DNA of 32,000 bases from positions 4,860,001-4,892,000 of the forward strand of contig CP001848.1 in NCBI GenBank assembly GCA_000025185.1. Reading direction: 5' to 3'. The first letter of the stretch is position 1, and each line of letters opens with the position of its first letter. A program made the position numbers and the translations under genes. The notes under the pieces were generated by a model. It did no database searches. It was given only the letters and a program-made list of their open reading frames with translations, and had not been told where the DNA came from. This document shows positions 15,271-28,438 of the stretch, one piece after another. The stretch is from Pirellula staleyi DSM 6068 (GTDB lineage: Bacteria > Planctomycetota > Planctomycetia > Pirellulales > Pirellulaceae).

Positions 15271-16142
15271 ACGAATCTCGCCCCCTCTTCGCCCCGCCTC
15301 GCATCCTTATGTGCTCTCCCGAATACTTTGGTATTGAATATGAAATCAATCCCTGGATGAGCCGCTCGCGTCAAGCAGATCGTCAACTCGCACTTCTGCA
15401 ATGGCATGGCTTGGCCGACATGCTGGAGTCGCTGGGAGTTATGATTGAACGCCTTCATCCTGTTGCGAAATTACCTGATTTAGTTTTCACTGCGAATGCT
15501 GCTTTAATCTTTAAGAAGAAAGCGGTTCTTTCACACTTTAAGCATACTGAACGACAGCGTGAAGAGCCACTTTTTCACGACTGGCTTACACAACATGGTT
15601 TTGAGGTCTTATGTCTTCCGGAAGATCATTTTTTTGAAGGGGCAGGTGATGCCCTTTTTGTAGGCGATACCCTTTATGCCGGGTATCGCATCCGAAGTGA
15701 TGTTCGAAGTGAACAGTTGATCGCCGCCTGGCTTGGTTGCCGAGTCCTTGCCGTCGAACTCGTCGACCCTTATTTTTATCATTTAGATACCTGCTTCTGT
15801 CCGCTCTCGACCGATTCGGCGATCTTCTATCCGGGCGCTTTTGATACCTACGGTATCGAAGTGCTGCAAAGCTCCATTCCCCTCTTAATTCCTGTTCGCG
15901 AGGAGGAGGCAAGAGCATTTGCCTGCAATGCAGTGGTGGTCGGAAAGCATGTCATCACCAATACGGGAGCACCTCAACTGCAACGCGACTTGCGAAACGC
16001 AGGCTTCACGCCTCACGAAACTCCGCTGTCGGAGTTTGTTAAAGCAGGGGGGAGTGCCAAGTGTCTCACGCTGAGGCTCGACGGCGAAAATGCGGCGGCT
16101 TGGCGGGAATCGCCAGCGATCTCGCAGCCTGTTTCCCCGTAA
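15267..16142 (+). CDS. guanidino-group-modifying enzyme fold protein (amidinotransferase/DDAH superfamily), putative arginine dihydrolase
   Basis: ATGA overlaps the upstream stop (15267-15270). Motifs: ILMCSPEYFGIEYEINPWM, FEGAGDAL, and YHLDTCFCPL. The C-terminal GGSAKCLTLRL carries the catalytic-type Cys. Confidence 0.8.
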   Translation: MNESRPLFAPPRILMCSPEYFGIEYEINPWMSRSRQADRQLALLQWHGLADMLESLGVMIERLHPVAKLPDLVFTANAALIFKKKAVLSHFKHTERQREEPLFHDWLTQHGFEVLCLPEDHFFEGAGDALFVGDTLYAGYRIRSDVRSEQLIAAWLGCRVLAVELVDPYFYHLDTCFCPLSTDSAIFYPGAFDTYGIEVLQSSIPLLIPVREEEARAFACNAVVVGKHVITNTGAPQLQRDLRNAGFTPHETPLSEFVKAGGSAKCLTLRLDGENAAAWRESPAISQPVSP

Positions 16143-16322
16143 TTCCCTGGACTAACTTCGTCCGGGAGGTCCCCCGCAGAGTGCCTAACGCGTACAATTC
16201 GGCCAGTTTCGTTTTCTGCCGAGACCGAAGGATCGGCTCGTTTGTTTTGCATGTCACTTGATTGTTCTGGCACGTCCAGCGCGACAAGTGGCATTGGCTT
16301 GTGCTCCTAGGAGGTGGTTCCG

Positions 16323-19157
16323 ATGCTCGGTCGCTCATTGTTTTGTTCAGTCACTGCGGCGATTCTGACTTTCTCGCTTGCAAGCAGTGCTCATGCTCGT
16401 GTGGAATCCGAGGCGATGAGTGGAGGCCGCATCAGCGTGGCCCGCATCTCGCTGGCGGCGGCTGACGTCGCTGGCCCTATCGACCCCATGCAAGTTCGTG
16501 TGGTCGACAACGACGGCCGAACCAGCTACCCGGCTGTGGCCGCTGGAACGCTCGGGAAATTTATCGGTCAGCTGCTGGGCGCCACCGAGGACCTTCCCCC
16601 CGGAACGCTCACCGTGACGTTTCTGTTTACGGGCGATCGACCTCTAGAAGTCACTCTTTACACCCCCTCGCCAATTCAGGTAACGATTGTTCCTCGACCG
16701 CCTCGCAACCCTCGCGAGTTTGATCGGCTTGTTGATCGCTGGTGGAAGGACTACCAAGCTCAAGCCAGGGCATCGGGTGAGCGTTCCGATCATCCACCCG
16801 TGGTGTATGACTACTTAGTCGCAATGCTCGCCCAGCGCTACGGTTTGCCGCTCCCCGATAAACAGCCACAAGCTGCCAGTGTGAGCCCGGGACAGCAATC
16901 GCTCGAGCTTTTGCTTGGCATGGAGCGTCTGAAGAGCGAAACCCTGAAGAACACGATGCTGGGGCGGGGCGATTTCACCGAACCAGCCGACATTCTTTTA
17001 CCGGAAGCTTTGCCGAGCGTGGCGCCACCCGTCCCTCCGGTTCCAGCCGATTTGAAGCTCGAAAAAATTGCATCGCACGTTCCCGAAGAGTGTTTTTATG
17101 TTCGCTTCGGCAAGTTCTCGAACTATCTGTGGCTCAACAAATTGCTGGCCGAATATGGGGGCGATATCAGCAGCATGGCGACGCTGCGAAGCTACACCCA
17201 GCCTTTGGGCGATCGCCTGCAAAAGCAACTTTCACTCGAGCAAAATCAACTTGCAGACTTGTTCGGCGACACGGTGATTTCGGATATCGCCATCATCGGC
17301 CGCGATACGTACATGAATGAAGGTGCCGCGATCGGCATCATGTTCGAAGCACGCGATAACGATGTCTTGAGCAACGATTTCTCGACCCAGCGCAAACGGA
17401 CACTTCAGAGAGAAAAAGCGGCCGGTTGTACTCTCGAAAAAGTCACCATCGCTGGTCGAGAGGTTTCTTTCCTTTCGACTCCTGATAACCGCATTCGATC
17501 CTTCTATGCGGTCGACGACAACTATCACCTCGTCACCACCTCGCGGGCCATCGTCGAGCGCTTCTTTGCAGCAGGCAAAGGGGACCGACCACTGGCCGCG
17601 ACCGAGGAATTTCGCTACGCCCGGACTCAAATGCCGCTATCGCGCGGCGACACCATCTTTGTCTACTTCAGTTCGCGATTCTTCGAAGAACTGCTCGGCC
17701 CCCAGTACCAAGTCGAACTCTACAGGCGTTTGCAGTCGGTCACCGACATGGAACTACTGCAACTGGCTCGCCTCGCGGCCGTGGGCGAAGGACTTCCTAC
17801 GGACGAAATGGAAGAACTGGTAGCTGCTGGTCTCTTGCCGCGTGGTTTTGGCCGCCGTCCCGATGGAAGCGGCCCCATCGTCACACCATCAGGAAGCATC
17901 GACTCGCGTCGTGGCGCACGTGGCTTTTTCCTGCCGATTCCAGACGTCGAAATCCGGTCGATCACCGCCTTGGAAGCCTCACGCATCGACGCCTTCTCGC
18001 GTGCCTACACTGCCCAGTGGAAACGGATGGACCCACTCATTGTGGCCATCAATCGCACCGCTCTCGACACGCCCGAAGAAGGGGGCCGAACGCGCGAACG
18101 CATCGTGATCGATGCCAATGTCACACCCCTCGATGAAACCAAATATGGCTCGCTGCTCTCGGTGCTTGGTCCAGCCACCAACGAAATGGTCACTCCGGCC
18201 GCTGGCGACGTAATCACGGCACAAGCATCGGTTCGCGGCGGACTTCTTTTGCCCAGCGTACCGCCTCACTACTTGTTCCTTGGCGTGCAAGATATGGTGC
18301 CGCTGTCCGACATTCGGCCGCAGGGGCTACTTCAAACGCTGCAGTTTTTGAAGACCGTGCCAGGCTACATCGGTGGCTGGCCCAAGCCAGGATTCCTCGA
18401 TGCTTTGCCGTTTAATCTCGGCGGCAGTCGACCCGATGCGTATGGTTTTTCGAAGTTGCCGTTTGGTCTCTGGCGTCGACAAGGGGCTGGATTCTCCGTG
18501 CTCTCCTTCGATCCACAATTGCTGGCCGATGTTACGCCACAGCTGCGCGTGGTCGAGTCCGAGACACCGGCACAAATTCGCTTGCACGTCGGAGACCTCA
18601 GTAGCGCCAAGTTCAGTGCCTGGGTGAGCCGGATGTACGAGCAACGTGCCGCTGAAGCATCGCGAGGCAACGTACACATGCTCCACCTGCTTCATCAGCA
18701 GATGAAGGTGCCGCTGGAAGATTCGCTTGCGGTCACCGAGCAATTGCTCGATGCCACACTAACCTGCCCGCTGGGTGGAAAGTATGAACTTGCGGCTGCT
18801 CCTTCGGGCGAGAAGTACTGGCAAAGTTCAGCCTGGAATCCCGACGTCGAAAAACGCGAGAAACAACCTTATCAAGCGCCGCTCCTCACTTGGTTTCGCG
18901 GTGTCGATGCCCATTTGATTCGTGATGAGTTCGGCATTTCGACGCACCTGGAACTCGACATGGTTCGCCAACCTGTCCCCGAAGATCAAAAGGTGAAAAT
19001 CCCCTCGTTCTTCGACCTGTTTAGTGGTGGTGGCCAGAAAGCAATGAAGCCCAAAAAGAAAGAAAACACCGAAGAACTTCCACCTCCACTTCCCCCCGTT
19101 CCCAAAGCCAGCACGCCGCAGATCGAACCTTCAGCTCCTGGAACGAAGGAATTTTAG
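16323..19157 (+). CDS. large secreted protein of unknown function
   Basis: ATG 16323 lies 8 nt after aggagg (16309-16314). The Sec signal is MLGRSLFCSVTAAILTFSLASSAHA. The 944-aa ORF has a K/P-rich C-terminal tail. No family was recognised. Confidence 0.85.
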   Translation: MLGRSLFCSVTAAILTFSLASSAHARVESEAMSGGRISVARISLAAADVAGPIDPMQVRVVDNDGRTSYPAVAAGTLGKFIGQLLGATEDLPPGTLTVTFLFTGDRPLEVTLYTPSPIQVTIVPRPPRNPREFDRLVDRWWKDYQAQARASGERSDHPPVVYDYLVAMLAQRYGLPLPDKQPQAASVSPGQQSLELLLGMERLKSETLKNTMLGRGDFTEPADILLPEALPSVAPPVPPVPADLKLEKIASHVPEECFYVRFGKFSNYLWLNKLLAEYGGDISSMATLRSYTQPLGDRLQKQLSLEQNQLADLFGDTVISDIAIIGRDTYMNEGAAIGIMFEARDNDVLSNDFSTQRKRTLQREKAAGCTLEKVTIAGREVSFLSTPDNRIRSFYAVDDNYHLVTTSRAIVERFFAAGKGDRPLAATEEFRYARTQMPLSRGDTIFVYFSSRFFEELLGPQYQVELYRRLQSVTDMELLQLARLAAVGEGLPTDEMEELVAAGLLPRGFGRRPDGSGPIVTPSGSIDSRRGARGFFLPIPDVEIRSITALEASRIDAFSRAYTAQWKRMDPLIVAINRTALDTPEEGGRTRERIVIDANVTPLDETKYGSLLSVLGPATNEMVTPAAGDVITAQASVRGGLLLPSVPPHYLFLGVQDMVPLSDIRPQGLLQTLQFLKTVPGYIGGWPKPGFLDALPFNLGGSRPDAYGFSKLPFGLWRRQGAGFSVLSFDPQLLADVTPQLRVVESETPAQIRLHVGDLSSAKFSAWVSRMYEQRAAEASRGNVHMLHLLHQQMKVPLEDSLAVTEQLLDATLTCPLGGKYELAAAPSGEKYWQSSAWNPDVEKREKQPYQAPLLTWFRGVDAHLIRDEFGISTHLELDMVRQPVPEDQKVKIPSFFDLFSGGGQKAMKPKKKENTEELPPPLPPVPKASTPQIEPSAPGTKEF

Positions 19158-19193
19158 TCGCCTCACGAAGATCGGGTGACATCAAGAAACGAA

Positions 19194-19240
19194 AAAGCCG
19201 TCTGAGAGATTCGTGAGAACCTTCAGCCGGCTTTGTTTTG
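19194..19240. terminator. intrinsic terminator between convergent genes (probably bidirectional)
   Basis: The stem pairs aaagccgtctga (19194-19205) with tcagccggcttt (19223-19234) with one mismatch. It is followed by gttttg on the + strand. It is preceded by gaaaaag, which gives a T-run on the - strand. Confidence 0.7.
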
Positions 19241-19296
19241 GCTAGTAGTTAAAACGTGGTGCGATAACGGGTGTCATCGCGTCATGTTTGTTTGCA

Positions 19297-20567
19297 ACTT
19301 AAGCAAACAATTCTTTGATGACCTTGCCACCGTTGGCGATCTTCATCGGACGGCCGCTCTTGCTCGTGAACGTCGTTTCCAGCGAGATCCCCAGCGCCTT
19401 GCAGACCGTTGCCATCACATCTTGCGACGTGTATGGCTCCGTCTCTACGCTTGTCCCATCTGCATTGGTCGAGCCCACGCCAAGGCCACCCTTCATGCCG
19501 GCACCACCCATCACCACGCTCCACGAACGAGCCCAGTGATCGCGGCCTGCACCGCCATTAATACGAGGGGTGCGGCTGAACTCGCCCATCCAAATGATCG
19601 CTGTATCTTCCAGCAAACCACGCTGTTCGAGGTCTTCCACCAGGGCGCTCATCGCGCGGTCCAGAACGGGAAGCTTCTGGTCGGCCAGCGTCGTGAAGAT
19701 GTTCGCGTGGTTGTCCCAACCGCCGAAATCAACTTCCACAAACGGTACACCAGCTTCCACCAAACGGCGGGCCATTAAGCACCCGCGGCCAAAGCCGTCG
19801 TTCCCGTAACGCTCTTGGACTTCCTTCGGTTCCTTCATCACTTTGAACGCTTCCATCTGACTGCTCGTCATCAGGTTCAAAGTCTTCTTCAGGATCTTCT
19901 GGTGGTCTTCCGAAGCGCTACCACGATTCTGCTTGATGAAGTTGTTTTCGATCATGTCCAAAGCAGCCATACGCTGCATCAGACGATCTTCTTTCAAACC
20001 CATCTCGAGGTTGCGAACCTGGCCGTTGCTGTTCACCACAAACGGCGACCAAGCCATGCCGAGGAAGCCAGGACCAACGCTGCCACCACCCACCGATACG
20101 AACGGAGGAATCTCGAGGTCGGCCCGTTGATCGATCAGTTCGTGCGACAGAACAGCACCGTAGCTCGGGTGTTCGATGTTCGGGTTCGGCACGTAGCCGG
20201 TGTGCATGTAGTAGCGGCCACGCATGTGATCCGCTTCACGCGTGCTCATCGAACGCACGATCGACAGCTTGTCCATCACCTTGGCGGTCATCGGCATGTG
20301 TTCGCTGATCTGCACGTCACCAGCGGTGCTGATCGGGCGAAACTGGCCACCGGTCGAAGCGCCGGGCTTCAGATCCCAAATGTCCATCGTGCTCGGACCG
20401 CCGCTCATCCACAGCAGAATCGCCGACTTCTTGTTCTTCTTCAGATCGGCAGCGTGAGCCATCAGGCTGTTGCCAAGCGTCAAGGCTGGAATCGTCATCG
20501 CGGACGCACCAGCCATATGACTCAGAAAATGACGGCGATTCATCCCTTCGGGAAGCAACAGACTCAT
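19297..20567. repeat. 1.27-kb dispersed repeat, copy A (coextensive with the DUF1501 CDS)
   Basis: It aligns to 24282-25552 at a constant offset of 4985 with 18 mismatches and no indels, judged by eye. Confidence 0.95.
19299..20567 (-). CDS. DUF1501 domain protein (sulfatase-like fold) with twin-arginine signal, copy 1
   Basis: The Tat-type N-terminus is [31 protein letters not shown]. Motifs [20 protein letters not shown] and GRDHWARSW are typical of DUF1501. It lies immediately downstream of a DUF1549/DUF1553 gene, the canonical pairing. Confidence 0.92.
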
Positions 20568-20725
20568 GACAATGTCCCCAAGATCTCAACGGACGCGTGA
20601 ACTTACAGATAACGATTGGATCGAAAACTATTCACTTGAGCCACTGCTGGAACTCTTGGCTATTTCAGCGGGAACTTTGCAGAAGTTCCTGAAGAGTCTT
20701 GCGTGGCCTCTTAATCTCTAAACGC

Positions 20726-23161
20726 TCAATGATCTAAAATGAACTCATTGGAATTCAAAAGTGCCCACCAAATATCTTCAACAGCAGCGGCCGGATTGGG
20801 GCCTGCTGAGGCAAGCATCTTTTCAGCTGCTTCGAGCTCGCGTTTGCTTGGACGTCGCGACAAGGCTGCGAGGAACAAATGCTCGACCTTCTCTTGCGGC
20901 GACATTTTGCTTTCGACAACACTTCGCAGCAGACCTTCATCGCGGCTGCTCACGGCACGCTGCATCAGTTCGCCATTCATCATCGCCAGCGACTGGCTCA
21001 TGCTGCCGTTGAAATTGGTTTCCTCTTCTGCGTCGTCGGTCGCCATGTTCCGCTGGAACTGAGCGAGCCAATCGCGCCGAGCAAGTTCAACCTGCGATTG
21101 ACCACCGCTCGACTTCCGCAACTGTGCGGCAATCAGGAGCGACTGGTAAACCTCTTCAGCCTGCATTTGGCGGGCGTAGTAGTGACTGAAGAGTGGAACC
21201 GTTCCAGCCTCGGGAGCATCGACGAGGTTACTGGCGGTGATCTTACTTGACCGCTGGAACGGATCACTGAGGGTGATCCAGCGAATCAGCATTTTCAAAT
21301 CGTGACCACTACGAATGAACTCGTCAGAGAGTCGCTCGAGTAGTTCCGGATGCGTTCCGCTGGCAGCGGCGATGATCTCGGCCTGCTCGGCTTCACTATC
21401 AGCGAGGCGAATGTTCGCGGGATCGAGACTGTTGGGCAGAGCTGCTTGGGGCTGCGACTTGGCGACTGGCTTGTCGGCCAGCGGCACCATGTCGTCGATC
21501 GGGCGGGTGAATCCGTAGCCAAAGAAATGGCTCCAGACACGATTGACCGTGGCTCGCGAGAATTGCTTGCTGGTGACAACTAATCGAGCGAGTTCAGCAC
21601 GACGACGAACCTCGCTGACGAGACCACTGGGGTCGACTTTCGAACCATCGAGGTATTCGGGATAGGCTGCCTTGAGCAAACCGTTGGGAGCCTGGTAGTA
21701 GACTTCGGCTTCGTCGGTGTTGCCACTGCTGCTCACGAAATCGGCATCGACAACGGCTGGCCTGCCCCCGATTTTCGTCAAGCGTGCCTGACGGAAGAAG
21801 GCGTTCATCGACCAATATTGCTGCTGTGTGAAATCGTGTGCTGGGTGATGATGGCACTGCGCACATTGCAGCTGATGCCCGAGAAATACTCGCGAAACTC
21901 GCGCGGTGGCCAGTGTTCCATCACCATCGAGGCTGTCGAGCATGAAGTTCACGGCACCATTGAACTTTTCGCTCCCTGGCTCGCCGGTTCCTTCGGCTGT
22001 AATCAATTCAAAGGCAATCTTGTCGTACGATTTGTTTTTGGCAATCGCATCGCGCAGGTAGAGTTCAAGCCCCTCACGACTCGCAGGACCTTCATCGTCG
22101 CTACCGGTGCTGCGACCAATCAGTGCGGTGGCAAAAATCGTCGCCCAGTAGCGAGAGTATTCATCGCGATACTCCTCAGCCGCGAGCAGACGATCGACTA
22201 GCGCGGCCGACTTGTTTGGCGACTTATCGGCCAGGTGCGTTTCGAGTTCTTTCACGGTCGGAATGCGGCCGAGCAGACGCAGAAAGACGCGCCGGCAGTA
22301 TTCAGCTTCCGTGGCCGTAGGGGAAGGTTCGACTCGATTGGCTTTCCAGGCAGCATCCACGGTTGTGTTGACGAACGAAATCACTTCACCAAGCGACGAT
22401 GGAGAAGCAGCAGGGGGTGGAACGAAGGTTGGATTCTCGAGCGTTTCACTCTGCTGAGCAGGATTGGCCGAAGCAATTTGTGGCGGGCCGTTATCAACCG
22501 TGCCGGGATTCATTCGACCGGGATTCGACGAGCGATCAGGACCGTTTGACGAATTTTTTGTGGACGAATCGCTGGGGGAGTTTGCTAGTTGTGGCTGATT
22601 GGTGCTGCGCTGCGGACGCGACTTGTCGCCCGACTTGACGACTGCAGACTTCTCGCCACCGAGTTTTTCCGTACCCGACTTGTTACCACCACCTGCCACC
22701 GAATTTTCCGAGGGCTGCGATAGTCCCCACCAGGCCACGCCAACAGCAACCAACGCAATAGCTGCCGAAAGGGTGAGAACTGGGACGTAGCTGGTTTTTC
22801 GCGATCGAACGCGAGTCGTGCGGATGGCCGGGGCCACTTGATCAGGCGCGGCGATAGCCTCGGGCTGCGACACCGTGCTGGGAGCGATCGCCATAGCGGG
22901 TACGCTGACCGGCGGTGCCACGAGTGGCGGAGCGATGGGCTGTCCACTCGCACTGAGCGAAGCAGCCACCATGCTGGACATACCAGCCGCGCTTGTCAGG
23001 CCAGCCGCGTTTGTCAGGCCAGCTGAACTGCTCGACTTGGGCGATGCGCCCCGCGCAGCCCACGCCTGGAGAATCCGCGCGGTGAGATCCGGCGGAGTTC
23101 GGTCTGCCAGGATTTCCTCCAGGCAGGCATCCAGGATGGGGTTGTCACGGTCCGGCGTCAT
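20726..23161 (-). CDS. membrane-anchored DUF1549/DUF1553 protein with an anti-sigma-like cytoplasmic N-terminus
   Basis: In this 811-aa ORF, the N-terminal approx. 40 aa (MTPDRDNPILDACLEEILADRTPPDLTARILQAWAA) resemble anti-sigma factor N-domains. A single TM helix follows (YVPVLTLSAAIALVAVGVAWWGL), then a long S/P/N/G-rich linker. The DUF1549-type motif is EAEYCRRVFLRLLGRIPTVKELE. The DUF1553-type motifs are FLGHQLQCAQCHHHP...YWSMNAFF and the C-terminal WWALLNSNEFILDH. Confidence 0.88.
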   Translation of the reverse strand: MTPDRDNPILDACLEEILADRTPPDLTARILQAWAARGASPKSSSSAGLTNAAGLTSAAGMSSMVAASLSASGQPIAPPLVAPPVSVPAMAIAPSTVSQPEAIAAPDQVAPAIRTTRVRSRKTSYVPVLTLSAAIALVAVGVAWWGLSQPSENSVAGGGNKSGTEKLGGEKSAVVKSGDKSRPQRSTNQPQLANSPSDSSTKNSSNGPDRSSNPGRMNPGTVDNGPPQIASANPAQQSETLENPTFVPPPAASPSSLGEVISFVNTTVDAAWKANRVEPSPTATEAEYCRRVFLRLLGRIPTVKELETHLADKSPNKSAALVDRLLAAEEYRDEYSRYWATIFATALIGRSTGSDDEGPASREGLELYLRDAIAKNKSYDKIAFELITAEGTGEPGSEKFNGAVNFMLDSLDGDGTLATARVSRVFLGHQLQCAQCHHHPAHDFTQQQYWSMNAFFRQARLTKIGGRPAVVDADFVSSSGNTDEAEVYYQAPNGLLKAAYPEYLDGSKVDPSGLVSEVRRRAELARLVVTSKQFSRATVNRVWSHFFGYGFTRPIDDMVPLADKPVAKSQPQAALPNSLDPANIRLADSEAEQAEIIAAASGTHPELLERLSDEFIRSGHDLKMLIRWITLSDPFQRSSKITASNLVDAPEAGTVPLFSHYYARQMQAEEVYQSLLIAAQLRKSSGGQSQVELARRDWLAQFQRNMATDDAEEETNFNGSMSQSLAMMNGELMQRAVSSRDEGLLRSVVESKMSPQEKVEHLFLAALSRRPSKRELEAAEKMLASAGPNPAAAVEDIWWALLNSNEFILDH
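22983..23018 (-). repeat. 18-bp tandem repeat (2 full copies plus a partial) in the low-complexity region
   Basis: ccagccgcgcttgtcagg (22983-23000) is followed by ccagccgcgtttgtcagg (23001-23018) and then ccagctg. It encodes the AGLTNAAGLTSAAG stretch. Confidence 0.8.
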
Positions 23162-23253
23162 GGCTCAAAGTTCTCGCTTTTGCTTTTTAGTTGCTTTGCA
23201 GTGAAACACCGCAATGAAACATCATTGTGGATTTCACGATTCAGGTTGATTTA

Positions 23254-23847
23254 TCAGCTCGAGCGACGTTTCGAACTAGCAGAGTTTTCGGTCGCTGCCG
23301 TCTCTGCTGGTCCCGGTCGCTCGTCACTCGTTAATTTATTCTCGACACACGTTTTAAGCTGCTGTTTGGCACGCTGCATTAAATTTTTTGCGCCATGCTC
23401 GGTGATTTCGAGGGCCGTCGCGATTTCATCTCGCGAACGATCACTTCGAAATCGCAACTCCAGAGCCATGCGAGCCCTCTCTGTCAGCCCCTTCAGGCAT
23501 TCCCGCAGAGCATCGAGAGCCGCCTCACCCGAGTCGTTCCCGGCCCAAGTGGTCCAGGTTCGATCGATCTCCTCCACCGCCTCCATTACCACCACTTTGC
23601 CAGCTCGGCGCTGATGGGAAATGAACAGGTTGAGGGCAATCTTCCGCAGGTAGGCTGCCGTCGCAGCAGCATTGATCTCTTGAAACGGACGCTGCAAAAC
23701 ATGCAGGAACGTCTCTTGCGTCAAATCCTCCGCGAGGGCCGACTCGCATCCCAAGGCTCGCAAATAGCGCCAAATCCCCGCCTGATACGTCTTGATCAGA
23801 TCGGCAGGGTTGAAGCTGGTCGCGGATGGCTCGGGGGGAGTCGTCAT
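23254..23847 (-). CDS. ECF-type sigma-70 family RNA polymerase sigma factor
   Basis: The 197-aa ORF has a region 2 (IWRYLRALGCESALAEDLTQETFLHVL) and a region 4 HTH (LRFRSDRSRDEIATALEITEHGAKNLMQRAKQQLKTC). It lies 92 nt upstream of the anti-sigma-like gene. Confidence 0.92.
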   Translation of the reverse strand: MTTPPEPSATSFNPADLIKTYQAGIWRYLRALGCESALAEDLTQETFLHVLQRPFQEINAAATAAYLRKIALNLFISHQRRAGKVVVMEAVEEIDRTWTTWAGNDSGEAALDALRECLKGLTERARMALELRFRSDRSRDEIATALEITEHGAKNLMQRAKQQLKTCVENKLTSDERPGPAETAATENSASSKRRSS

Positions 23848-23917
23848 GACCCAATTACTAAGCGAAGGCCGCCGTTAGATGTACTCAGATGCCGAAAGAA
23901 AAACTGCGCAAAGCATT

Positions 23918-23944
23918 ATTCGCAAAAAACTTAGCTGCGATTCC
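23918..23944 (-). promoter_or_regulatory. candidate ECF-type promoter (GGAAT-N17-CGAAT) upstream of the sigma factor gene
   Basis: The minus strand reads aaaaatGGAATcgcagctaagttttttgCGAATaat about 70-95 nt upstream of ATG 23847. It resembles the GGAAC-N16/17-CGT/TCGA architecture of autoregulated ECF promoters. This is a motif match only. Confidence 0.2.
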
Positions 23945-24133
23945 ATTTTTCGTGATTTCGAGCCCCAATCGACACGAAATCGATCGATTTTCAGAAGAAT
24001 GGCCCACCACGCAACCATTCACCGCTAGATCTATCGTAAATCGAGGCAGACTGCTGCACTACTCGGCGATTTTGGAATGCAAACGTTCGGGAGCAGGCCC
24101 GGAACCGGACCTCAGCCTCCCTGCGCAAAGAAA

Positions 24134-24171
24134 ATCGCGGCCAAGATGACGTTTTGCATCTCGGCCGCGAT
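24134..24171 (-). terminator. intrinsic terminator downstream of the second DUF1553-DUF1501 pair
   Basis: A 9-bp GC-rich stem, atcgcggcc (24134-24142) and ggccgcgat (24163-24171), is followed on the minus strand by tttctttgcgc. The + strand also has ttggttttt after it. Confidence 0.65.
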
Positions 24172-24281
24172 CGTTGGTTTTTAGCTCTGGGCGATGATCT
24201 ACCTTAGGTAGTCTGCCTCACTCAATCGGGCTGATCAGCTCGACTCAGCAGGGCATCACCGCCGTCCATCTCGAAACCGCT

Positions 24282-25552
24282 ACTTAAGCAAACAATTCTT
24301 TGATGACCTTGCCGCCATTGGCGATCTTCATCGGGCGGCCGCTCTTGCTCGTGAACGTCGTTTCCAGCGAGATCCCCAGCGCCTTGCAGACCGTTGCCAT
24401 CACATCTTGCGATGTGTAAGGCTCCGTCTCCACGCTTGTCCCATCTGCATTGGTCGAGCCCACGCCAAGGCCACCCTTCATACCGGCACCACCCATCACC
24501 ACGCTCCACGAACGAGCCCAGTGATCGCGGCCTGCACCGCCGTTAATACGAGGAGTGCGGCTGAACTCGCCCATCCAAATGATCGCTGTATCTTCCAGCA
24601 AACCACGCTGTTCGAGGTCTTCCACCAGGGCGCTCATCGCGCGGTCCAGAACGGGAAGCTTCTGGTCGGCCAGCGTCGTGAAGATGTTCGCGTGGTTGTC
24701 CCAACCGCCGAAGTCAACTTCCACAAACGGTACACCAGCTTCCACCAAACGGCGGGCCATCAAGCACCCGCGCCCAAAGCCGTCGTTCCCGTAACGCTCT
24801 TGGACTTCCTTCGGTTCCTTCATCACTTTGAACGCTTCCATCTGACTGCTCGTCATCAGGTTCAAAGTCTTCTTCAGGATCTTCTGGTGGTCTTCCGAAG
24901 CGCTACCACGATTCTGCTTGATGAAGTTGTTTTCGATCATGTCCAAAGCAGCCATACGCTGCATCAGACGATCTTCCTTCAAACCCATCTCGAGGTTGCG
25001 AACCTGGCCGTTGCTGTTCACCACAAACGGCGACCAGGCCATGCCGAGGAAGCCAGGACCAACGCTGCCACCACCCACCGATACGAACGGAGGAATCTCG
25101 AGGTCGGCCCGTTGATCGATCAGTTCGTGCGACAGAACAGCACCGTAGCTCGGGTGTTCGATGTTCGGGTTCGGCACGTAGCCGGTGTGCATGTAGTAGC
25201 GGCCACGCATGTGATCCGCTTCACGCGTGCTCATCGAACGCACGATCGAAAGCTTGTCCATCACCTTGGCGGTCATCGGCATGTGTTCGCTGATCTGCAC
25301 GTCACCAGCCGTGCTGATCGGGCGGAACTGGCCACCGGTCGAAGCGCCGGGCTTCAGATCCCAAATGTCCATCGTGCTCGGGCCGCCGCTCATCCACAGC
25401 AGAATCGCCGACTTCTTGTTCTTCTTCAGATCGGCAGCGTGAGCCATCAGGCTGTTGCCAAGCGTCAAGGCTGGAATCGTCATCGCGGACGCACCAGCCA
25501 TATGACTCAGAAAATGACGGCGATTCATCCCTTCGGGAAGCAACAGACTCAT
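24282..25552. repeat. 1.27-kb dispersed repeat, copy B (coextensive with the DUF1501 CDS)
   Basis: See copy A. The flanks become unrelated immediately outside the start codon and 2 nt beyond the stop codon. Confidence 0.95.
24284..25552 (-). CDS. DUF1501 domain protein with twin-arginine signal, copy 2 (protein identical to copy 1)
   Basis: From ATG 25552 ([15 protein letters not shown]...) the 422-aa product is identical to that of 19299-20567. The ORF-track extension to 25858 overlaps the upstream gene and is not protein-like. Confidence 0.92.
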
Positions 25553-25688
25553 AAGAAGACTCCGGTAATTCTGGTGGCAGTCGCCGGTAAAGTGACAGCT
25601 GCCTTGGATACTTATTGACTTGAAACTTGTTAGACGTAGTTGACTTGTTTGTCGATGCCGAGCCCCTTTGCAGAGCTCTTCACACCGC

Positions 25689-27443
25689 TTAGTGCTGCAG
25701 GATGAACTCGTTGGTGTTGAGCACCACCCAGAACAGATCTTGAAGTGCAGCGGCTGTATCCCCCTGACGCCAGGTGAGGATTTGATTAGCTGCACGCAGT
25801 TCGGTGTCCGTTGGATTTCGAGCAAGAGCCGCTTGGAACAGATACTCGATCTTCGCACCCGGCTTAAGATTGCTGGTGGCGATGGTCGACAGGAAGCTTC
25901 CCTTATCGAGCTTCGTGGCGTCTTTGATCAGATCGCCATTGAACATCATCAAAGCTTGGGGAATTGTGCCGTTGAAGGTTGTCGATTCGTCACCTTCGTC
26001 GGTACCGAAAGCGATCGTGAACTGACGCATCCATTCGGCTTTGATCTTCTCTTGGTCTTCGTAGTTGCCACGGGTCTTGTGCGCCTGCGTTGCTACGAGA
26101 AGCGATTCATACAGCTGTTCTGCCTGCATCTGACGCAGGTAGAAGTGAGTGAACTTAGGAGTTTCGCCCATCAGCGGATCGTCGGATTTGTTCTTCGAGG
26201 TCACCACGCTGCTCAGCGAATAGGCTTCCGACAGCGTGATCCAGCGGATCAGTTCCTTGAGATCGAAGCTGTTTTGACGAACTTGCTGGCCGAGATAGTC
26301 GAGCAGCACGGGATGCGTCGGGGCATTGTGCGGGCCGAGATCGTCGATTGGCTTGGTGAAACCATAGCCCAGGAAGTGCCCCCACATGCGGTTGGCAATC
26401 GTCTTATCCATGAACTCCGACTTGATGATCAGCTTGGCCAACTCGGTGCGGCGATCGTTGTCTTCGAGATAGCCACTCTTGCTGATCTCGCTGCCATCGA
26501 CGAACACAGGGAAGGCACTCGAGAGAATGCCGTTGCGGAGTTCGTAGTAAAGGATCGCTTCATTAGGATCAGCGCCGGCACCTTCGCCCGCGAAATCTTG
26601 GTTCATCAGCTTGGCGCCAGCGATGTCGCGAGTGCCCGGGACGAATTCGCGAAGTGCACGCGTTTGACGGAAAAAGGCGTTGAATTCCCAGAATTTCTGC
26701 TGTTTCCATTCGTTGAACGGATGGTTGTGGCACTGGGTGCATTGAATCTGCAGCCCCAGGAAGTTCTTGGCCGTCATGGCAGTGGCTTGAGCAGCGTTTT
26801 CGTCGAGCTTCATCACCAAGTAGTTGGTGGCGCCGTTGAAACCTTCACCACCTGGAGCAGTCGAGCCAGTAGCCGAAACAAGCTCATACACCATGCGGTC
26901 GTAAGGCTTGTTGCGAGCAAACGAATCGCGGAGGAATTTCTGCATCCCCGCGCGGCTGATCAGTGTGTCGTCTTCGAGACCACCGTTGCGACCAATCAGA
27001 ATGTTGGTCCAAATCGTGGTCCAGTTGCGGGCGTAATCTTCGGTGTAGGACTCGTCGTAGAGCAGCTTCGAAACCAGCTTCAGTTTCTTGTCGGTTTCGC
27101 GGCTGGCGAGAAAATCGCGGAGTTCTTGGACCGAGGGAATCCGGCCGAGGATGTCGAGGTAGACACGTCGGCACCACTCGCCATCGGTGGCAGGTGGCGA
27201 AGGAGTGAGCTGGTTATCGGTCCAGACTTGCCGGATCTGTTCGTTGATGAACTTCACCTGAGGCATGCCGTAGTCAGGAACAACCGGCCCCGTGGCCGAT
27301 GGTTTGGCGGGCGTTGTCGAGGTGGTTGCCTCTTGCCCCAGCAAAACGCTGGTTGGGGCGGAGAGTAGCAAGGCACATCCCGCCACGAACGTGGCGATAG
27401 GTGTGCGAATCCAGTGGGCGAGAGAAGTTGTCATCTTGGTCAT
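25689..27443 (-). CDS. secreted DUF1549/DUF1553 protein (no anti-sigma domain)
   Basis: The Sec-type signal is ...[26 protein letters not shown]. The DUF1549 motif is [24 protein letters not shown]. The DUF1553 motifs are [16 protein letters not shown]...FWEFNAFF and the C-terminal [14 protein letters not shown]. The start is ambiguous: ATG 27443 was chosen, with TTG 27452 and ATG 27434 as alternatives. Confidence 0.88.
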
Positions 27444-28054
27444 CCTGATCAACTAGCTACCTGACAAGCGTGCTCGACAAGGGACTTACAACAAAGCACG
27501 CTGGCGGTCGTGATGGTGGCCGCACAGAGTGCTCGGTATTTGATGTGTTGGTTATCCGACCAGCCAGCGTTACTAGCAGTAAACTCAGAGTATTTTCGGC
27601 AGCAGGAAACGAACGAATGTCGCTCCCAGCCAACCGAAGTAGAGAAGTCCATCGCTATCTGTAACCTGAAACGTACGTTGCGCTCGGTTGTACTCGCGAA
27701 AGCCCGAATATTTGCCAGCTACTACCGAAAACCGGTACTGCATGGATGCCGCGTGCGACGCTTGCCGCAGGAAGTCCATGGAGAGCCTCGAGAACTTCGC
27801 GCGAGTCGTCCTCAATTGCATCGATAACCGAAAACTTATTTGACGACGTAGCTCAAGAGATTGCAAGCACTTGGAGCAAATTTCACCCTCCCAGGAGGTG
27901 CGTACTTCTGCTGCCGCCTGGAGGGGCAAACGTCGCGGCAAAAAAAGATTTTTTCTTCTTTTCCTGACTACCACCCACAACGCTACTTGTTGATCCCGAA
28001 GTCAGCGGGTGGCATTTGTTCGATTTTGATACAATTGTTGCGAAATTGAACATC

Positions 28055-28370
28055 AAAATAAAACAGGCGAGGTCGCTCGAGCTTCTGTCTCGAGCGCACT
28101 CGCCTGTTGGTTGAAAGTGCTCTTTGGGCAGGGTCTGCACTTTCTCGTCTTAGTCGTGGGCAACCATCGCTTTCGCTGCCAACGACCCAGTTTTGCTTGT
28201 TTTTGGCTAACTGGAGCCCAAAAATACGTTCCGCTTCTTTGTTTCCGCGATCCTCTGCGAGCCTCTCTTAATCCGGCCCCAGCACAAACTTCTCTGTTTT
28301 CGCGAGGATCGCGGTTAGCATCGCTGCGGCGAGCGAATGATCAGTCAGGTTCCAGCTAACTGCTCATGTT
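28055..28370 (-). ncRNA. candidate approx. 315-nt non-coding transcript (sigma-54 promoter to intrinsic terminator)
   Basis: It is bounded by the sigma-54 motif and the 28062-28108 terminator. There is no ORF longer than about 17 codons with an ATG on the minus strand. Internal long-range pairing: ccgcgatcctc (28245-28255) with gaggatcgcgg (28304-28314), plus gcga/tcgc. There is also a gctaac/gttagc hairpin near the 5' end. This is purely predictive. Confidence 0.3.
28062..28108 (-). terminator. strong minus-strand intrinsic terminator
   Basis: The outer 10-bp stem is aacaggcgag (28062-28071) with ctcgcctgtt (28099-28108). The inner 8-bp stem is cgctcgag (28074-28081) with ctcgagcg (28089-28096). 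On the minus strand the hairpin is followed by ttttattttgatg. There is no T-tract on the + strand. Confidence 0.8.
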
Positions 28371-28380
28371 AGCAACTATA

Positions 28381-28396
28381 TGCAAGCGGCGTGCCA
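28381..28396 (-). promoter_or_regulatory. sigma-54 (RpoN) -24/-12 promoter motif
   Basis: The minus strand reads tTGGCACgccgcTTGCAt, that is TGGCAC-N5-TTGCA with canonical spacing. TGGCAC is at 28391-28396 and TTGCA at 28381-28385. It is intergenic, 43 nt downstream of the ABC transporter stop. I checked the TGGCAC/GTGCCA occurrences I could find by eye and none of the others had TTGC at N5. The predicted TSS is near 28370. Confidence 0.5.
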
Positions 28397-28438
28397 AAAG
28401 TACGTGCAGCCGAGCGAAGCGGCACTCAACTTACTCGC

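What the first reader, a model, noticed from the sequence alone, without database searches (positions are those of the whole stretch)
19299..23944. ECF sigma factor, anti-sigma::TM::linker::DUF1549/DUF1553 fusion and Tat-exported DUF1501: a candidate envelope signalling module
The gene order on the minus strand is ECF sigma (23254-23847), then after 92 nt an 811-aa protein, then after 158 nt a DUF1501 gene.

The 811-aa protein starts with an anti-sigma-like segment (ILDACLEEILADRTPPDLTARILQAW). A single TM helix follows, then an approx. 120-residue S/P/N/G-rich low-complexity linker, then a complete DUF1549/DUF1553 ectodomain.

The second pair in the window (25689-27443 and 24284-25552) has the same ectodomain architecture. 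However, it has a cleavable signal peptide instead of the anti-sigma/TM/linker part, and no sigma gene.

This suggests that the DUF1549/DUF1553-DUF1501 machinery, whose function is still unknown and which is massively expanded in Planctomycetota, exists here in two versions. One is a sensor version wired to transcription and the other is a free periplasmic version. Both share an identical DUF1501 subunit.

The identical subunit could let the sensor copy report on the substrate or occupancy state of the working copy.
Basis: partly seen in the sequence, partly recalled or inferred. Interest (0 to 1): 0.68.

Follow-up and report, generated by a model that had tools for sequence, protein, structure and literature searches.

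The report
ECF sigma/anti-sigma switch with paralogue sensor
In Pirellula staleyi, an alternative sigma factor is paired with a membrane protein whose short, previously unclassified N-terminal peptide is always encoded next to that sigma factor, and whose outer domain is a fast-evolving copy of the very DUF1549/DUF1553 protein whose operon carries the sigma factor's predicted promoter; this gives a testable handle on a very large protein family of unknown function.

Summary
The window is Pirellula staleyi DSM 6068. On the minus strand lie a secreted PSCyt2/PSD1 (DUF1549/DUF1553) protein, DUF1501 copy 1, a terminator, an ECF sigma gene, the 811-aa fusion protein, and DUF1501 copy 2.

**Fusion protein.** It has a 36-residue two-helix N-terminal module, a disordered linker, one N-in TM helix, a second disordered linker, and a well-folded PSCyt2/PSD1 ectodomain with CxxCH.

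**N-terminal module.**
- It is the best-conserved part of more than 100 homologues.
- It matches no Pfam or PDB family.
- In 38 of 38 genome loci it directly follows an ECF sigma gene, often with an ATGA overlap.
- This holds in 11 loci where the ectodomain is vWA/YfbK, LRR, FecR or unknown.

**Promoter motif.** A conserved ECF-type motif, TGAGTAC-N15-GCGTT, precedes the sigma gene. It also precedes the free PSCyt2/PSD1-DUF1501 operon in 13 of 16 cases, including two genomes where that operon is unlinked. Only 1 of about 640 control windows carries it.

**Conclusion.** The conserved unit is a sigma/anti-sigma pair that probably autoregulates and drives the free pair. The second DUF1501 copy occurs in a minority of lineages. 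It is identical in protein to copy 1, with 18 differences, all synonymous. Sigma binding, the signal, and the shared-DUF1501 idea remain untested.

The parts
27667..27696 (-). ECF-type promoter-like site (CGAGTACAAC-N12-ACGTTTCA), 244 nt upstream of the free PSCyt2/PSD1 gene
   Evidence: PWM score 15.7 bits. The equivalent site is found upstream of the free gene in 13 of 16 loci, against 1 of about 640 control windows.
25689..27452 (-). Free, secreted PSCyt2/PSD1 (DUF1549/DUF1553) protein, 587 aa, with a signal peptide and CxxCH (QCTQCHNH)
   Evidence: Pfam PSCyt2 4.7e-47 and PSD1 6.2e-33. It is 44% identical to the fusion ectodomain.
24284..25552 (-). DUF1501 copy 1, 422 aa, with a Tat motif (NRRHFL)
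   Evidence: Pfam DUF1501 1.3e-105. The AF2 model matches type-I sulfatases (alkaline-phosphatase superfamily) by Foldseek, E about 1e-4. Orthologues are 81-88% identical.
24133..24172 (-). Intrinsic-terminator-like hairpin (16 pairs, 9 of them G-C) after DUF1501 copy 1. It separates the free-pair operon from the sigma operon.
23858..23887 (-). ECF-type promoter-like site (TGAGTACATC-N12-TCGCTTAG) that ends 10 nt before the sigma ATG, implying a near-leaderless mRNA
   Evidence: The same motif lies 30-60 nt upstream of sigma in most of the homologous loci. The same -10 variant (TCGCTTAG) is present in the closest relative, L044.
23254..23847 (-). ECF (group 4) sigma factor, 197 aa, with a lineage-specific 24-aa C-terminal tail
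   Evidence: Pfam Sigma70_r2 and Sigma70_r4_2. The best NCBIfam match is TIGR02989, below its cutoff. Orthologues are 173 aa and 67-88% identical.
23054..23161 (-). N-terminal module of the 811-aa protein (residues 1-36, MTPDRDNPILDACLEEILADRTPPDLTARILQAWAA). This is the proposed sigma-binding (anti-sigma) peptide, predicted to form two helices.
   Evidence: Mean identity to the reference is 67%, against 13% in the linkers. The profile finds 528 clusters (50% identity), and in all 150 listed the match begins within the first ~60 residues (position 1-21 in 146). In 38/38 loci it lies after an ECF sigma gene. It has no Pfam or PDB match. Predicted helices are 8-18 and 27-36.
22721..22792 (-). 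Single transmembrane helix (residues 124-147), preceded by RTTRVRSRK, giving an N-in topology
   Evidence: Kyte-Doolittle maximum is 2.18. All 104 homologues have one such segment after an R/K cluster. AF2 predicts a helix at 130-145.
20729..22396 (-). PSCyt2/PSD1 ectodomain of the 811-aa protein (residues 256-811) with invariant C433, C436, H437 and H439 (CxxCHxH). This is the proposed periplasmic sensor.
   Evidence: Pfam. pLDDT is above 90 over most of the domain. Invariant columns are listed. It evolves faster than the free paralogue: 21-55% against 56-79% identity to P. staleyi.
20718..20747 (-). Weaker promoter-like site (TGAGTTCATT-N12-GCGTTTAG) that overlaps the stop of the fusion gene, upstream of DUF1501 copy 2
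   Evidence: 19.8 bits. The -35 half is coded by the conserved C-terminal NEFI residues and has T in place of the otherwise invariant A, so it may be partly fortuitous. A similar degenerate site lies at the same place in L044.
19299..20567 (-). DUF1501 copy 2, identical in protein to copy 1
   Evidence: 18 differences, all synonymous; the identity is confined to the ORF.
19190..19231 (-). Terminator-like hairpin followed by a U-run, after DUF1501 copy 2
   Evidence: RNAfold gives -17.6 kcal/mol.

Best explanation
The locus is an ECF sigma/anti-sigma signalling unit together with its target operon.

**Resting state.** The 811-aa protein is a single-pass, N-in membrane anti-sigma factor. Its 36-residue two-helix N-terminal module holds the sigma factor at the cytoplasmic face of the membrane. 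Two long disordered linkers and one TM helix connect the module to a periplasmic PSCyt2/PSD1 domain. That domain is a fast-evolving paralogue of the secreted PSCyt2/PSD1 protein encoded two genes upstream.

**Activation.** A change sensed by the ectodomain inactivates the anti-sigma factor. What is sensed is most likely the same ligand, redox state or DUF1501 partner that the free paralogue handles. Inactivation most likely occurs by proteolysis in the disordered linkers followed by intramembrane cleavage, as in other single-pass anti-sigma factors.

**Output.** The freed sigma factor transcribes from TGAGTAC-N15-GCGTT promoters:
- its own sigma/anti-sigma operon (autoregulation);
- the free PSCyt2/PSD1-DUF1501 operon;
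- in P. staleyi, possibly the extra DUF1501 copy as well.

**Shown here.** Gene order and translational coupling; the module-sigma association independent of the ectodomain; the membrane topology; the shared promoter motif, also on unlinked target operons; and the rate asymmetry between the sensor and the working paralogue.

**Inferred.** Physical sigma binding, the nature of the signal, the release mechanism, and any contact with DUF1501.
For: **1. The module is conserved.**
- More than 110 full-length homologues carry xPDRDDPILDACLDEVLGGRTPPDLTARI(M/L)QAWA at residue 1.
- Mean identity to the reference is 67% in the module, 13% in the linkers and 52-57% in the ectodomain.

**2. The module is tied to an ECF sigma gene.**
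- A genome-wide pattern scan gave 38 loci. All 38 have an ECF sigma gene immediately upstream on the same strand, and at least 14 show a start/stop overlap (also 20-22, 44).
- Eleven of these loci join the module and a TM helix to other ectodomains: vWA/YfbK_C, LRR, FecR or unknown. Their sigma factors belong to the same family.

**3. Topology.** All 104 homologues have one TM segment preceded by an R/K cluster. AF2 gives two short helices, disorder, a TM helix, disorder and a confident ectodomain.

**4. Promoter motif.**
- The dyad GAGTA/CGTT occurs upstream of sigma in 19 of 31 loci, against a maximum of 5 in shuffles.
- In a PWM scan of 506 kb on both strands, 46 of 49 hits lie on the cluster strand.
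- 13 of 16 free-gene upstream windows score at least 13 bits, although they were not used to build the PWM. Only 1 of about 640 unrelated ORF-upstream windows does.
- In Anatilimnocola sp. NA78 the free pair lies 4.3 Mb from the sigma locus. In A. floriformis it lies on another contig. In both, the only hits in the 13-kb loci sit 174-182 nt upstream of the free gene.

**5. Window-specific signals.** Sites lie at 27696, 23887 and 20747 on the minus strand. Terminators follow each DUF1501 copy.

**6. Rate asymmetry.** Identity to P. staleyi is 70-86% for DUF1501, 56-79% for the free protein, 46-71% for sigma and 21-55% for the fusion ectodomain.

**7. Literature.** An ECF sigma factor (RB10049) next to a PSD1/PSC2 protein (RB10051) in R. 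baltica was proposed as its regulator. RB10049 is induced by heat, cold and salt (PMC2754498, citing Studholme 2004).
Against: - No direct test of sigma-module binding was possible, because no multimer prediction was available.
- The module has no detectable similarity to any known anti-sigma domain. No Pfam hit appeared for any of 45 members at E up to 10, and no meaningful PDB hit.
- The two module helices are predicted at only 49-68 pLDDT.
- Most of the 38 loci are orthologous operons, so 38/38 partly reflects conserved synteny. The independent weight comes mainly from the 11 loci with other ectodomains.
- The PWM was trained on the sigma-upstream sites, so those hits are circular. Only the free-gene sites are independent.
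- In P. staleyi itself the sites are weaker than the consensus: the -10 upstream of sigma is TCGCTTAG, and the free-gene site lies 244 nt from the start codon.
- No protease gene lies in the window.
- The ECF group of the sigma factor could not be assigned. TIGR02989 scores below its cutoff, and ECF Hub models were not available.
Confidence: 0.7

Rival explanations
1. The 811-aa protein is only a sigma-dependent target: a membrane-anchored isoform of the PSCyt2/PSD1 protein co-transcribed with the sigma gene. Its N-terminal peptide would then have some other cytoplasmic role, such as localisation or export, and would not bind the sigma factor. The sigma factor would be controlled in another way, for example at the level of transcription only.
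For: The module resembles no known anti-sigma domain. It is only about 36 residues long and is modelled with modest confidence. Several planctomycetal ECF groups are reported to lack anti-sigma factors (PMC7826278, PMC8999054).
Against: The module stays next to a sigma factor of the same family when the ectodomain is replaced by vWA/YfbK, LRR or FecR domains. A passive target would not do this. ATGA start/stop coupling points to stoichiometric co-expression. The module is more conserved than the sigma factor itself. The N-in, single-pass layout is the canonical anti-sigma layout.
Confidence: 0.12
2. The module is a sigma-binding regulator that acts positively (pro-sigma), as reported for the FecR N-terminus with FecI. 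The sigma factor would then be inactive without it. Signalling would deliver an activating fragment instead of relieving inhibition.
For: One relative carries the same module in front of a FecR domain (L040). The module is short, like the N-terminal domain of FecR-type regulators (from established knowledge of FecI/FecR). Its co-expression with sigma is tightly coupled.
Against: There is no sequence similarity to FecR N-terminal domains: the Pfam scan of the L040 protein found only PF04773. Nothing in the sequence separates negative from positive action.
Confidence: 0.1
3. The sensor ectodomain and the free protein compete for the same DUF1501 subunit, so that DUF1501 occupancy is the signal. 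On this view P. staleyi keeps two identical DUF1501 genes because both partners must see the same protein.
For: In 14 loci one DUF1501 gene serves a cluster that holds both a free protein and a fusion PSCyt2/PSD1 protein. PSCyt2/PSD1 and DUF1501 are a conserved gene pair (PMC3542564; 10.1101/150078). In 5 loci DUF1501 directly follows the fusion gene with no free paralogue nearby. The two P. staleyi copies have 0 non-synonymous and 18 synonymous differences.
Against: - No evidence here or in the papers read shows that PSCyt2/PSD1 and DUF1501 bind each other.
- DUF1501 is so constrained (81-88% identity across genera) that 0 of 18 non-synonymous changes needs no special explanation.
- The sensor ectodomain is only 18-45% identical to the free paralogue in the same locus. 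A shared interface is therefore not assured.
- Many genomes have sigma-fusion with no DUF1501 nearby (about 10 loci).
Confidence: 0.25
4. The arrangement is a chance juxtaposition of an ECF sigma gene with members of a massively expanded family.
For: PSCyt2/PSD1 and DUF1501 genes are very numerous in Planctomycetes: each domain occurs 41 times in R. baltica (PMC2754498).
Against: The arrangement is conserved in 38 of 38 loci across Pirellulales and beyond, with overlapping reading frames and a shared promoter motif.
Confidence: 0.01

Closest known systems
Canonical ECF sigma with a single-pass membrane anti-sigma factor (sigmaE/RseA, sigmaW/RsiW type)
   Same: - Gene order is sigma then anti-sigma, in one operon.
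- The anti-sigma factor is N-in with a single TM helix, a cytoplasmic sigma-binding N-terminus and an extracytoplasmic sensor.
- An autoregulated ECF-type promoter with a CGT-containing -10 element sits upstream of the sigma gene.
   Different: - The N-terminal module has 36 residues and two predicted helices. It has no match to zf-HC2, RskA or any other Pfam or PDB anti-sigma domain.
- About 85 and 107 residues of disordered linker flank the TM helix.
- The ectodomain is a 556-residue PSCyt2/PSD1 domain with CxxCH.
FecI/FecR-type cell-surface signalling and class II anti-sigma factors (CnrY)
   Same: - A short N-terminal sigma-binding peptide is followed by a TM helix.
- In FecR systems the sensor reads the state of a partner protein and not a free ligand.
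- One relative of the module is fused to a FecR domain (L040).
   Different: - No FecR domain and no TonB-dependent transducer are present here.
- No sequence similarity to FecR or CnrY N-termini was detected.
- The resemblance to class II anti-sigma domains is in size and layout only.
PSCyt2/PSD1 (DUF1549/DUF1553)-DUF1501 gene pairs of the PVC superphylum (Kamneva et al. 2012, PMC3542564; He et al. 2017, 10.1101/150078)
   Same: - The window holds the typical pair: a signal-peptide PSCyt2/PSD1 protein with CxxCH followed by a Tat-signal DUF1501 protein.
- Function is unknown in the literature.
   Different: Here one paralogue of the first protein carries an N-terminal sigma-linked module and a TM anchor, and the free pair carries the cognate promoter motif. 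Those papers do not describe this sigma-linked form.
RB10049 (ECF sigma) / RB10051 (PSD1 + PSC2 protein) of Rhodopirellula baltica (Studholme et al. 2004, as cited in Wecker et al. 2009, PMC2754498)
   Same: An ECF sigma gene lies next to a DUF1549/DUF1553 protein, and the sigma factor was suggested to regulate it.
   Different: - I could not check whether RB10051 has the N-terminal module or whether RB10049 is orthologous.
- It identifies neither a promoter motif nor a free-pair regulon.
Sensors that are paralogues of the protein they regulate (UhpC for UhpT; yeast Snf3/Rgt2 for Hxt transporters); from general knowledge
   Same: A duplicated copy of a working protein has become a faster-evolving sensor that controls expression of the working copy.
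   Different: The output here runs through an ECF sigma factor, and the working protein is a periplasmic protein of unknown activity, not a transporter. This is an analogy only, not homology.

Membership tests
ECF (group 4) sigma-70 family | Only sigma2 and sigma4 domains are present, in a protein of about 170-200 aa | tested here: met
   Pfam Sigma70_r2 (17-83) and Sigma70_r4_2 (112-164), with no r1 or r3; 197 aa. TIGR02937 sigma70-ECF scores 63 bits, above its 42.9 cutoff.
ECF (group 4) sigma-70 family | Assignment to a named ECF group (ECF Hub classification) | not testable with these tools
   The best NCBIfam subfamily is TIGR02989 (Rhodopirellula/Verrucomicrobium family) at 81 bits, below its 124.55 cutoff. 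ECF Hub HMMs were not available, and the supplement of PMC7826278 is not held.
ECF sigma/anti-sigma operon | The anti-sigma gene lies immediately downstream of the sigma gene and is co-transcribed, and this arrangement is conserved | tested here: met
   38 of 38 loci, with at least 14 start/stop overlaps (20-22, 44). P. staleyi has a 92-nt gap instead.
ECF sigma/anti-sigma operon | Physical binding of the sigma factor by the N-terminal domain | not testable with these tools
   No multimer prediction or experiment was possible.
ECF sigma/anti-sigma operon | An autoregulatory ECF-type promoter upstream of the sigma gene | tested here: met
   TGAGTACWWT-N12-GCGTTYTA lies 30-60 nt upstream of the sigma gene in most of the homologous loci. 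In the window it is at 23887-23858. This is a sequence motif only; no TSS data exist.
Class I anti-sigma domain (zf-HC2 / RskA, four-helix ASD) | HMM match to zf-HC2 or RskA, about 80-90 residues with four helices | tested here: not met
   No Pfam hit for residues 1-154 at E up to 1, nor for any of 45 modules at E up to 10. No anti-sigma chain in PDB matches the profile. Only two helices, 8-18 and 27-36, are predicted before the disordered region.
Class II anti-sigma domain (CnrY-like) / FecR N-terminal domain | A short cytoplasmic peptide (about 30-45 residues) before a TM helix that wraps sigma2 and sigma4 | tested here: inconclusive
   Size and layout agree. No sequence similarity was detected. 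Binding mode could not be tested.
PSCyt2/PSD1 (DUF1549/DUF1553) proteins | Both Pfam domains score above the gathering threshold, and the CxxCH motif is conserved | tested here: met
   PF07583 at 142.5 bits and PF07587 at 103.9 bits. C433, C436 and H437 are invariant in 104 homologues. Haem attachment was not tested.
DUF1501 (alkaline-phosphatase/sulfatase superfamily) | Pfam PF07394 match, a twin-arginine signal, and an alkaline-phosphatase-like fold | tested here: met
   PF07394 at 354 bits. The RRHF residues are invariant. All 29 Foldseek PDB matches at E <= 0.001 (rows 1-29) are sulfatases; further alkaline-phosphatase-superfamily members (iPGM, LtaP, 3lxq) follow among the 50 rows listed, at E 1.4e-4 to 2e-3 and probability 0.93-1.0. 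The model is only moderate (pLDDT 65, TM about 0.3). Catalytic residues were not examined.
Regulated intramembrane proteolysis of anti-sigma factors | Site-1 and site-2 protease cleavage releases the sigma factor | not testable with these tools
   No protease gene lies in the window. Long disordered linkers on both sides of the TM helix are compatible with this mechanism but are not evidence for it.

The most novel reading that the evidence does not exclude
The PSCyt2/PSD1 ectodomain of the anti-sigma factor is a decoy paralogue. On this reading it competes with the free PSCyt2/PSD1 protein for the sulfatase-fold, Tat-exported DUF1501 partner, or for their common substrate. The sigma factor would then adjust expression of the working pair to its occupancy. 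The 36-residue N-terminal peptide would be a new class of ECF anti-sigma domain, used in Planctomycetota in front of many different sensor domains (PSCyt2/PSD1, vWA/YfbK, LRR, FecR). If true, the motif promoter would serve as a ready-made reporter to find the inducer, and thereby the first function, for one of the largest uncharacterised protein families of the PVC superphylum.
Probability: 0.25. Interest if true: 0.75.

Novelty: new variant of a known kind. Interest (0 to 1): 0.58.

Why it matters
DUF1549/DUF1553 (PSCyt2/PSD1) and DUF1501 proteins are present in dozens of copies per planctomycetal and verrucomicrobial genome. Their function has been unknown since 2004.

This locus supplies three testable handles:
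- a dedicated sigma factor;
- a predicted promoter motif that marks the working operon even when it is unlinked;
- a sensor that is itself a copy of the working protein.

A reporter on that promoter, or sigma overexpression, could reveal what induces the system and which genes it controls.

Separately, the N-terminal peptide is a candidate new anti-sigma module. It is absent from Pfam, and 528 sequence clusters carry it (always near the N-terminus among the 150 listed). It would improve annotation of ECF regulation in Planctomycetota, where several ECF groups are listed as lacking a known regulator.

Tried and rejected
- **Similarity to known anti-sigma domains.** I ran a Pfam scan of residues 1-154 at E up to 1, a Pfam scan of 45 modules at E up to 10, and a profile search of PDB sequences. 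Nothing meaningful appeared, apart from synthetic coiled-coil peptides.
- **Solved relatives by sequence.** None were found for the fusion protein or DUF1501.
- **Chance adjacency.** Rejected.
- **DUF1501 duplication including flanks.** Rejected, because alignments of the flanks show no similarity.
- **Gene-conversion mosaic.**
  - I compared a related strain (L047, 98.4% nt identity). Its copy-1 gene matches window copy 1 at 7 of the 18 variable sites and copy 2 at 11, including a run of 9.
  - My runs test is not significant (z about -1.3), and a simple star-like tree explains the data equally well. I therefore do not claim mosaicism.
  - What can be said is that the divergence between the copies (1.4%) is about the same as the inter-strain divergence (1.3-1.6%).
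- **ECF group assignment and prior descriptions.** Jogler 2012 and Wiegand 2020 are not held, and the supplement of Casas-Pastor 2021 is not held. Full-text searches found only the Wecker 2009 remark.
- **Sigma-70-type promoters in 18900-28400.** None were found.
- **RNA genes.** No Rfam or tRNA hits in the window.

Full report
**Source and observation.** The 811-aa protein is 100% identical to a DUF1549 protein of Pirellula staleyi DSM 6068 (contig of 6.196 Mb). The sigma factor is identical to that genome's "sigma-24, ECF subfamily" protein.
- The sigma factor carries Sigma70_r2 and Sigma70_r4_2.
- The 811-aa and 587-aa proteins carry PSCyt2 (DUF1549) and PSD1 (DUF1553).
- The two 422-aa proteins carry DUF1501.

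The two DUF1501 proteins are identical. Their genes differ at 18 of 1269 positions, every one a synonymous third-codon change. The similarity begins at the ATG and ends about 5 nt after the stop, and the flanks are unrelated.

**Anatomy of the 811-aa protein.**
- Residues 1-36 form a conserved module (MTPDRDNPILDACLEEILADRTPPDLTARILQAWAA).
- Residues 37-123 are an A/S/P-rich segment.
- Residues 124-147 are the only strongly hydrophobic stretch and are preceded by RTTRVRSRK.
- Residues 148-255 are S/P/N/G-rich.
- Residues 256-811 are the PSCyt2/PSD1 domain.

An AlphaFold2 model built on 104 homologues gives two short helices (8-18 and 27-36, pLDDT 49-68), then disorder, a TM helix (130-145), more disorder, and a confidently folded ectodomain with pLDDT mostly above 90. 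All 104 homologues have one hydrophobic segment after an R/K cluster, so the N-terminus is cytoplasmic and the ectodomain periplasmic. The CxxCH motif (QCAQCHHH) is invariant in the family and is also present in the free paralogue (QCTQCHNH). The ectodomain has no solved relative by sequence or by Foldseek.

**The N-terminal module is a sigma-linked unit.**
- More than 110 full-length homologues (40-65% identity) start with xPDRDDPILDACLDEVLGGRTPPDLTARI(M/L)QAWA. The few exceptions look like truncated gene calls.
- The module is the best-conserved part of the protein: 67% mean identity to the reference, against 13% in the linkers and 52-57% in the ectodomain.
- A profile of 45 modules finds 528 clusters (50% identity) among 1.84 billion representatives. 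In all 150 listed the match begins within the first ~60 residues (position 1-21 in 146 of them).
- A scan of one genome per species with the pattern PPDL[TS][AD]RI[LM][QAE] returned 38 loci. In all 38, my ORF and phmmer analysis finds an ECF sigma gene immediately upstream on the same strand. At least 14 have overlapping stop and start codons. The Pfam-annotated contexts agree.
- In 11 of these loci the module and TM helix are joined to other ectodomains: vWA/YfbK_C, leucine-rich repeats, a FecR domain, or unknown domains. Their sigma factors belong to the same family.

The association is therefore between the sigma factor and the module, not between the sigma factor and PSCyt2/PSD1. That is what one expects of an anti-sigma domain.

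The module matches no Pfam family and no solved structure. It is not a member of the class I anti-sigma domain family by the tests available. In size and layout it resembles short anti-sigma peptides such as class II (CnrY) or the FecR N-terminus, but that is a resemblance only.

Four arrangements occur:

| Type | Gene order | Loci |
|---|---|---|
| A | free PSCyt2/PSD1, DUF1501, sigma, fusion | 14 |
| B | sigma, fusion only | about 10 |
| C | sigma, fusion, DUF1501 | L020-L022, L027 (Blastopirellula marina), L031 |
| D | both flanks occupied | L024 and this window |

P. staleyi thus has the common type A cluster plus an extra DUF1501 gene after the fusion gene. In type B genomes the free pair exists elsewhere. 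In Anatilimnocola sp. NA78 it lies 4.3 Mb from the sigma locus. In A. floriformis it lies on a different contig.

**A shared promoter motif links the sigma factor to the free pair.**
- Dyad enumeration upstream of 31 sigma genes gave GAGTA/AGTAC paired with CGTT in 19 loci, against at most 5 in shuffles. The aligned sites read TGAGTAC(A/T)(A/T)T-N12-GCGTT(T/C)TA and lie 30-60 nt before the start codon. This implies very short leaders.
- A PWM built from these sites was run over all loci (506 kb, both strands). Of 49 hits at 13 bits or more, 46 lie on the cluster strand. Besides the sigma genes, they sit upstream of the free PSCyt2/PSD1 gene in type A loci, usually as CGAGTAC.
- In a controlled count, 13 of 16 free-gene upstream windows reach 13 bits. 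These sites were not used to build the PWM. Among 682 ORF-upstream windows, the only hit outside cluster genes was one.
- In the two Anatilimnocola genomes with an unlinked free pair, the only hits of 11 bits or more in the 13-kb loci lie 174-182 nt upstream of the free gene.

In the window, the minus-strand sites are as follows:

| Position | Sequence | Location |
|---|---|---|
| 27696-27667 | CGAGTACAAC-N12-ACGTTTCA | 244 nt upstream of the free gene |
| 23887-23858 | TGAGTACATC-N12-TCGCTTAG | ends 10 nt before the sigma ATG |
| 20747-20718 | TGAGTTCATT-N12-GCGTTTAG | overlaps the fusion stop, upstream of DUF1501 copy 2 |

- The closest relative, L044, shares the TCGCTTAG variant at the second site.
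- The third site is doubtful. Its -35 half is encoded by the conserved C-terminal NEFI residues, and it has T at the otherwise invariant A.
- Some other loci also have sites before DUF1501 (L004, L026, L029).
- Terminator-like hairpins follow each DUF1501 copy (24172-24133; 19231-19190).

The simplest reading is two or three sigma-dependent transcription units: the free pair, the sigma-fusion operon, and possibly DUF1501 copy 2.

**Evolution of the parts.**
- Identity to the P. staleyi proteins across the same genomes is 70-86% for DUF1501, 56-79% for the free protein, 46-71% for sigma and 21-55% for the fusion ectodomain. Within a locus the free protein and the fusion ectodomain are 18-45% identical.
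- The sensor copy therefore evolves much faster than the working copy, as expected after subfunctionalisation.
- In rough neighbour-joining trees the free proteins form one clade nested among the fusion ectodomains, with the type C fusions L020-L022 and L031 as their nearest relatives. This suggests that an anchored, sigma-linked protein followed by DUF1501 may be the older state. The trees are not robust enough to assert it.

**DUF1501.** Orthologues are 81-88% identical across genera. A moderate AF2 model (pLDDT 65, pTM 0.74) matches type-I sulfatases and other alkaline-phosphatase-superfamily enzymes. All 29 Foldseek matches at E <= 0.001 are sulfatases (best 1.4e-4), with probability 0.93-1.0. 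The twin-arginine motif is invariant. Catalytic residues were not analysed.

**The duplicated DUF1501.**
- The P. staleyi protein clusters with the upstream (free-pair) copies of its closest relatives, L026 and L007.
- A related strain (L047, 98.4% nt identity over 3076 nt) shows the same free-end, DUF1501, 197-aa sigma and fusion-start arrangement. Its DUF1501 differs from window copy 1 at 17 sites and from copy 2 at 13, all at third positions.
- The two copies are thus about as diverged (1.4%) as two strains are (1.3-1.6%). The flanks share nothing.
- L044, the next relative, has a DUF1501 3' end upstream of sigma. About 200 nt after its fusion gene there is an ATG followed by MNLEIPGG, which resembles a DUF1501 start. 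This weakly suggests that a downstream DUF1501 slot predates the event that made the P. staleyi copies identical.
- A recent ORF-wide gene conversion or replacement, followed by strong purifying selection, fits best. The apparent mosaic in L047 is not statistically significant, and the exact ORF boundaries remain unexplained.
- Given how constrained DUF1501 is, 0 non-synonymous changes among 18 is not in itself remarkable.

**Mechanism.** I commit to the following at about 0.7 for the core.
1. The 811-aa protein is the cognate anti-sigma factor of the adjacent ECF sigma factor.
2. Its N-terminal two-helix module sequesters the sigma factor.
3. Its PSCyt2/PSD1 ectodomain senses a periplasmic condition related to what the free PSCyt2/PSD1-DUF1501 pair acts on.
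4. Inactivation, probably proteolytic through the disordered linkers, frees the sigma factor.
5. The sigma factor then transcribes its own operon and the free-pair operon from GAGTAC-N-CGTT promoters.

It has no direct support, and I put it at about 0.25. Direct ligand or redox sensing through the conserved CxxCH site is at least as likely.

**Comparison with what is known.**
- The system works like a classical ECF sigma with a single-pass anti-sigma pair, and conceptually like FecR-type signalling or sensor-paralogue circuits such as UhpC/UhpT.
- The PSCyt2/PSD1-DUF1501 pair has been described, with function unknown (PMC3542564; 10.1101/150078).
- An ECF sigma factor next to a PSD1/PSC2 protein in R. 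baltica was noted in 2004. That sigma factor (RB10049) is induced by heat, cold and salt (PMC2754498).
- In the literature available to me I found no description of the N-terminal module, the fused architecture as an anti-sigma factor, the promoter motif, or the free pair as regulon.
- Jogler 2012, Wiegand 2020 and the ECF Hub group descriptions could not be read, so prior description there cannot be excluded.

**Verdict.** The feature is real. It is a new variant of a known kind of system. Interest is moderate to good, because it makes the function of a very large orphan family experimentally approachable.

Noticed in passing
window 19299-20567 and 24284-25552: The identity between the two DUF1501 genes is confined to the ORF: 18 differences, all synonymous, and unrelated flanks. 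The divergence between the copies (1.4%) equals the inter-strain divergence seen with L047. The sharp boundaries at the ATG and about 5 nt past the stop are not explained by simple duplication or by ordinary conversion tracts.
   Followed up: partly
window 23254-23325 and the 23162-23253 gap: The P. staleyi sigma factor has a 24-aa C-terminal tail (…NKLTSDERPGPAETAATENSASSKRRSS) and a 92-nt gap before the fusion gene. Orthologues are 173 aa and overlap the fusion start by 4 nt. The related strain L047 shares the 197-aa form.
   Followed up: partly
L030, L035, L038, L041, L043 (vWA/YfbK_C); L032 (LRR); L040 (FecR); L025, L028, L039 (unknown): The same N-terminal module and TM helix are fused to unrelated ectodomains, and each lies after an ECF sigma factor of the same family. 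This makes the module a modular, unannotated anti-sigma-like N-terminus in Planctomycetota.
   Followed up: partly
window 23858-23847, and sigma loci in L001-L031: The promoter motif ends only 3-12 nt before the sigma start codon. The sigma mRNA is therefore probably leaderless or nearly so.
   Followed up: no
window 16314-19157 (+): A 947-aa secreted protein with no Pfam or NCBIfam match is convergent with DUF1501 copy 2. A weak motif-like site (CGCGTACAAT-N10-TCGTTTTC) lies at 16189, 125 nt upstream, but its spacer is 2 nt short.
   Followed up: no
window 135-941 (-): IS4/IS5-family DDE transposase (DDE_Tnp_1, DUF4096).
   Followed up: no
window 12005-13681 (-): A 558-aa ORF in a local high-GC stretch (0.61-0.62, against about 0.55 elsewhere) with no Pfam match.
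   Followed up: no
window 14005-16142 (+): An ArgZ-like arginine dihydrolase gene and a DDAH/amidinotransferase-like gene overlap by 4 nt and are probably an arginine-catabolic pair.
   Followed up: no
window 2640-3710 (+): A DUF1559 protein with an N-terminal methylation motif (type IV pilin-like). This is another family that is massively expanded in Planctomycetes.
   Followed up: no
L004 3232, L026 5622, L029 5919: In some type A loci an additional motif-like site lies between the free PSCyt2/PSD1 gene and DUF1501. This hints that DUF1501 can have its own sigma-dependent promoter, as is possibly the case at window 20747.
   Followed up: no
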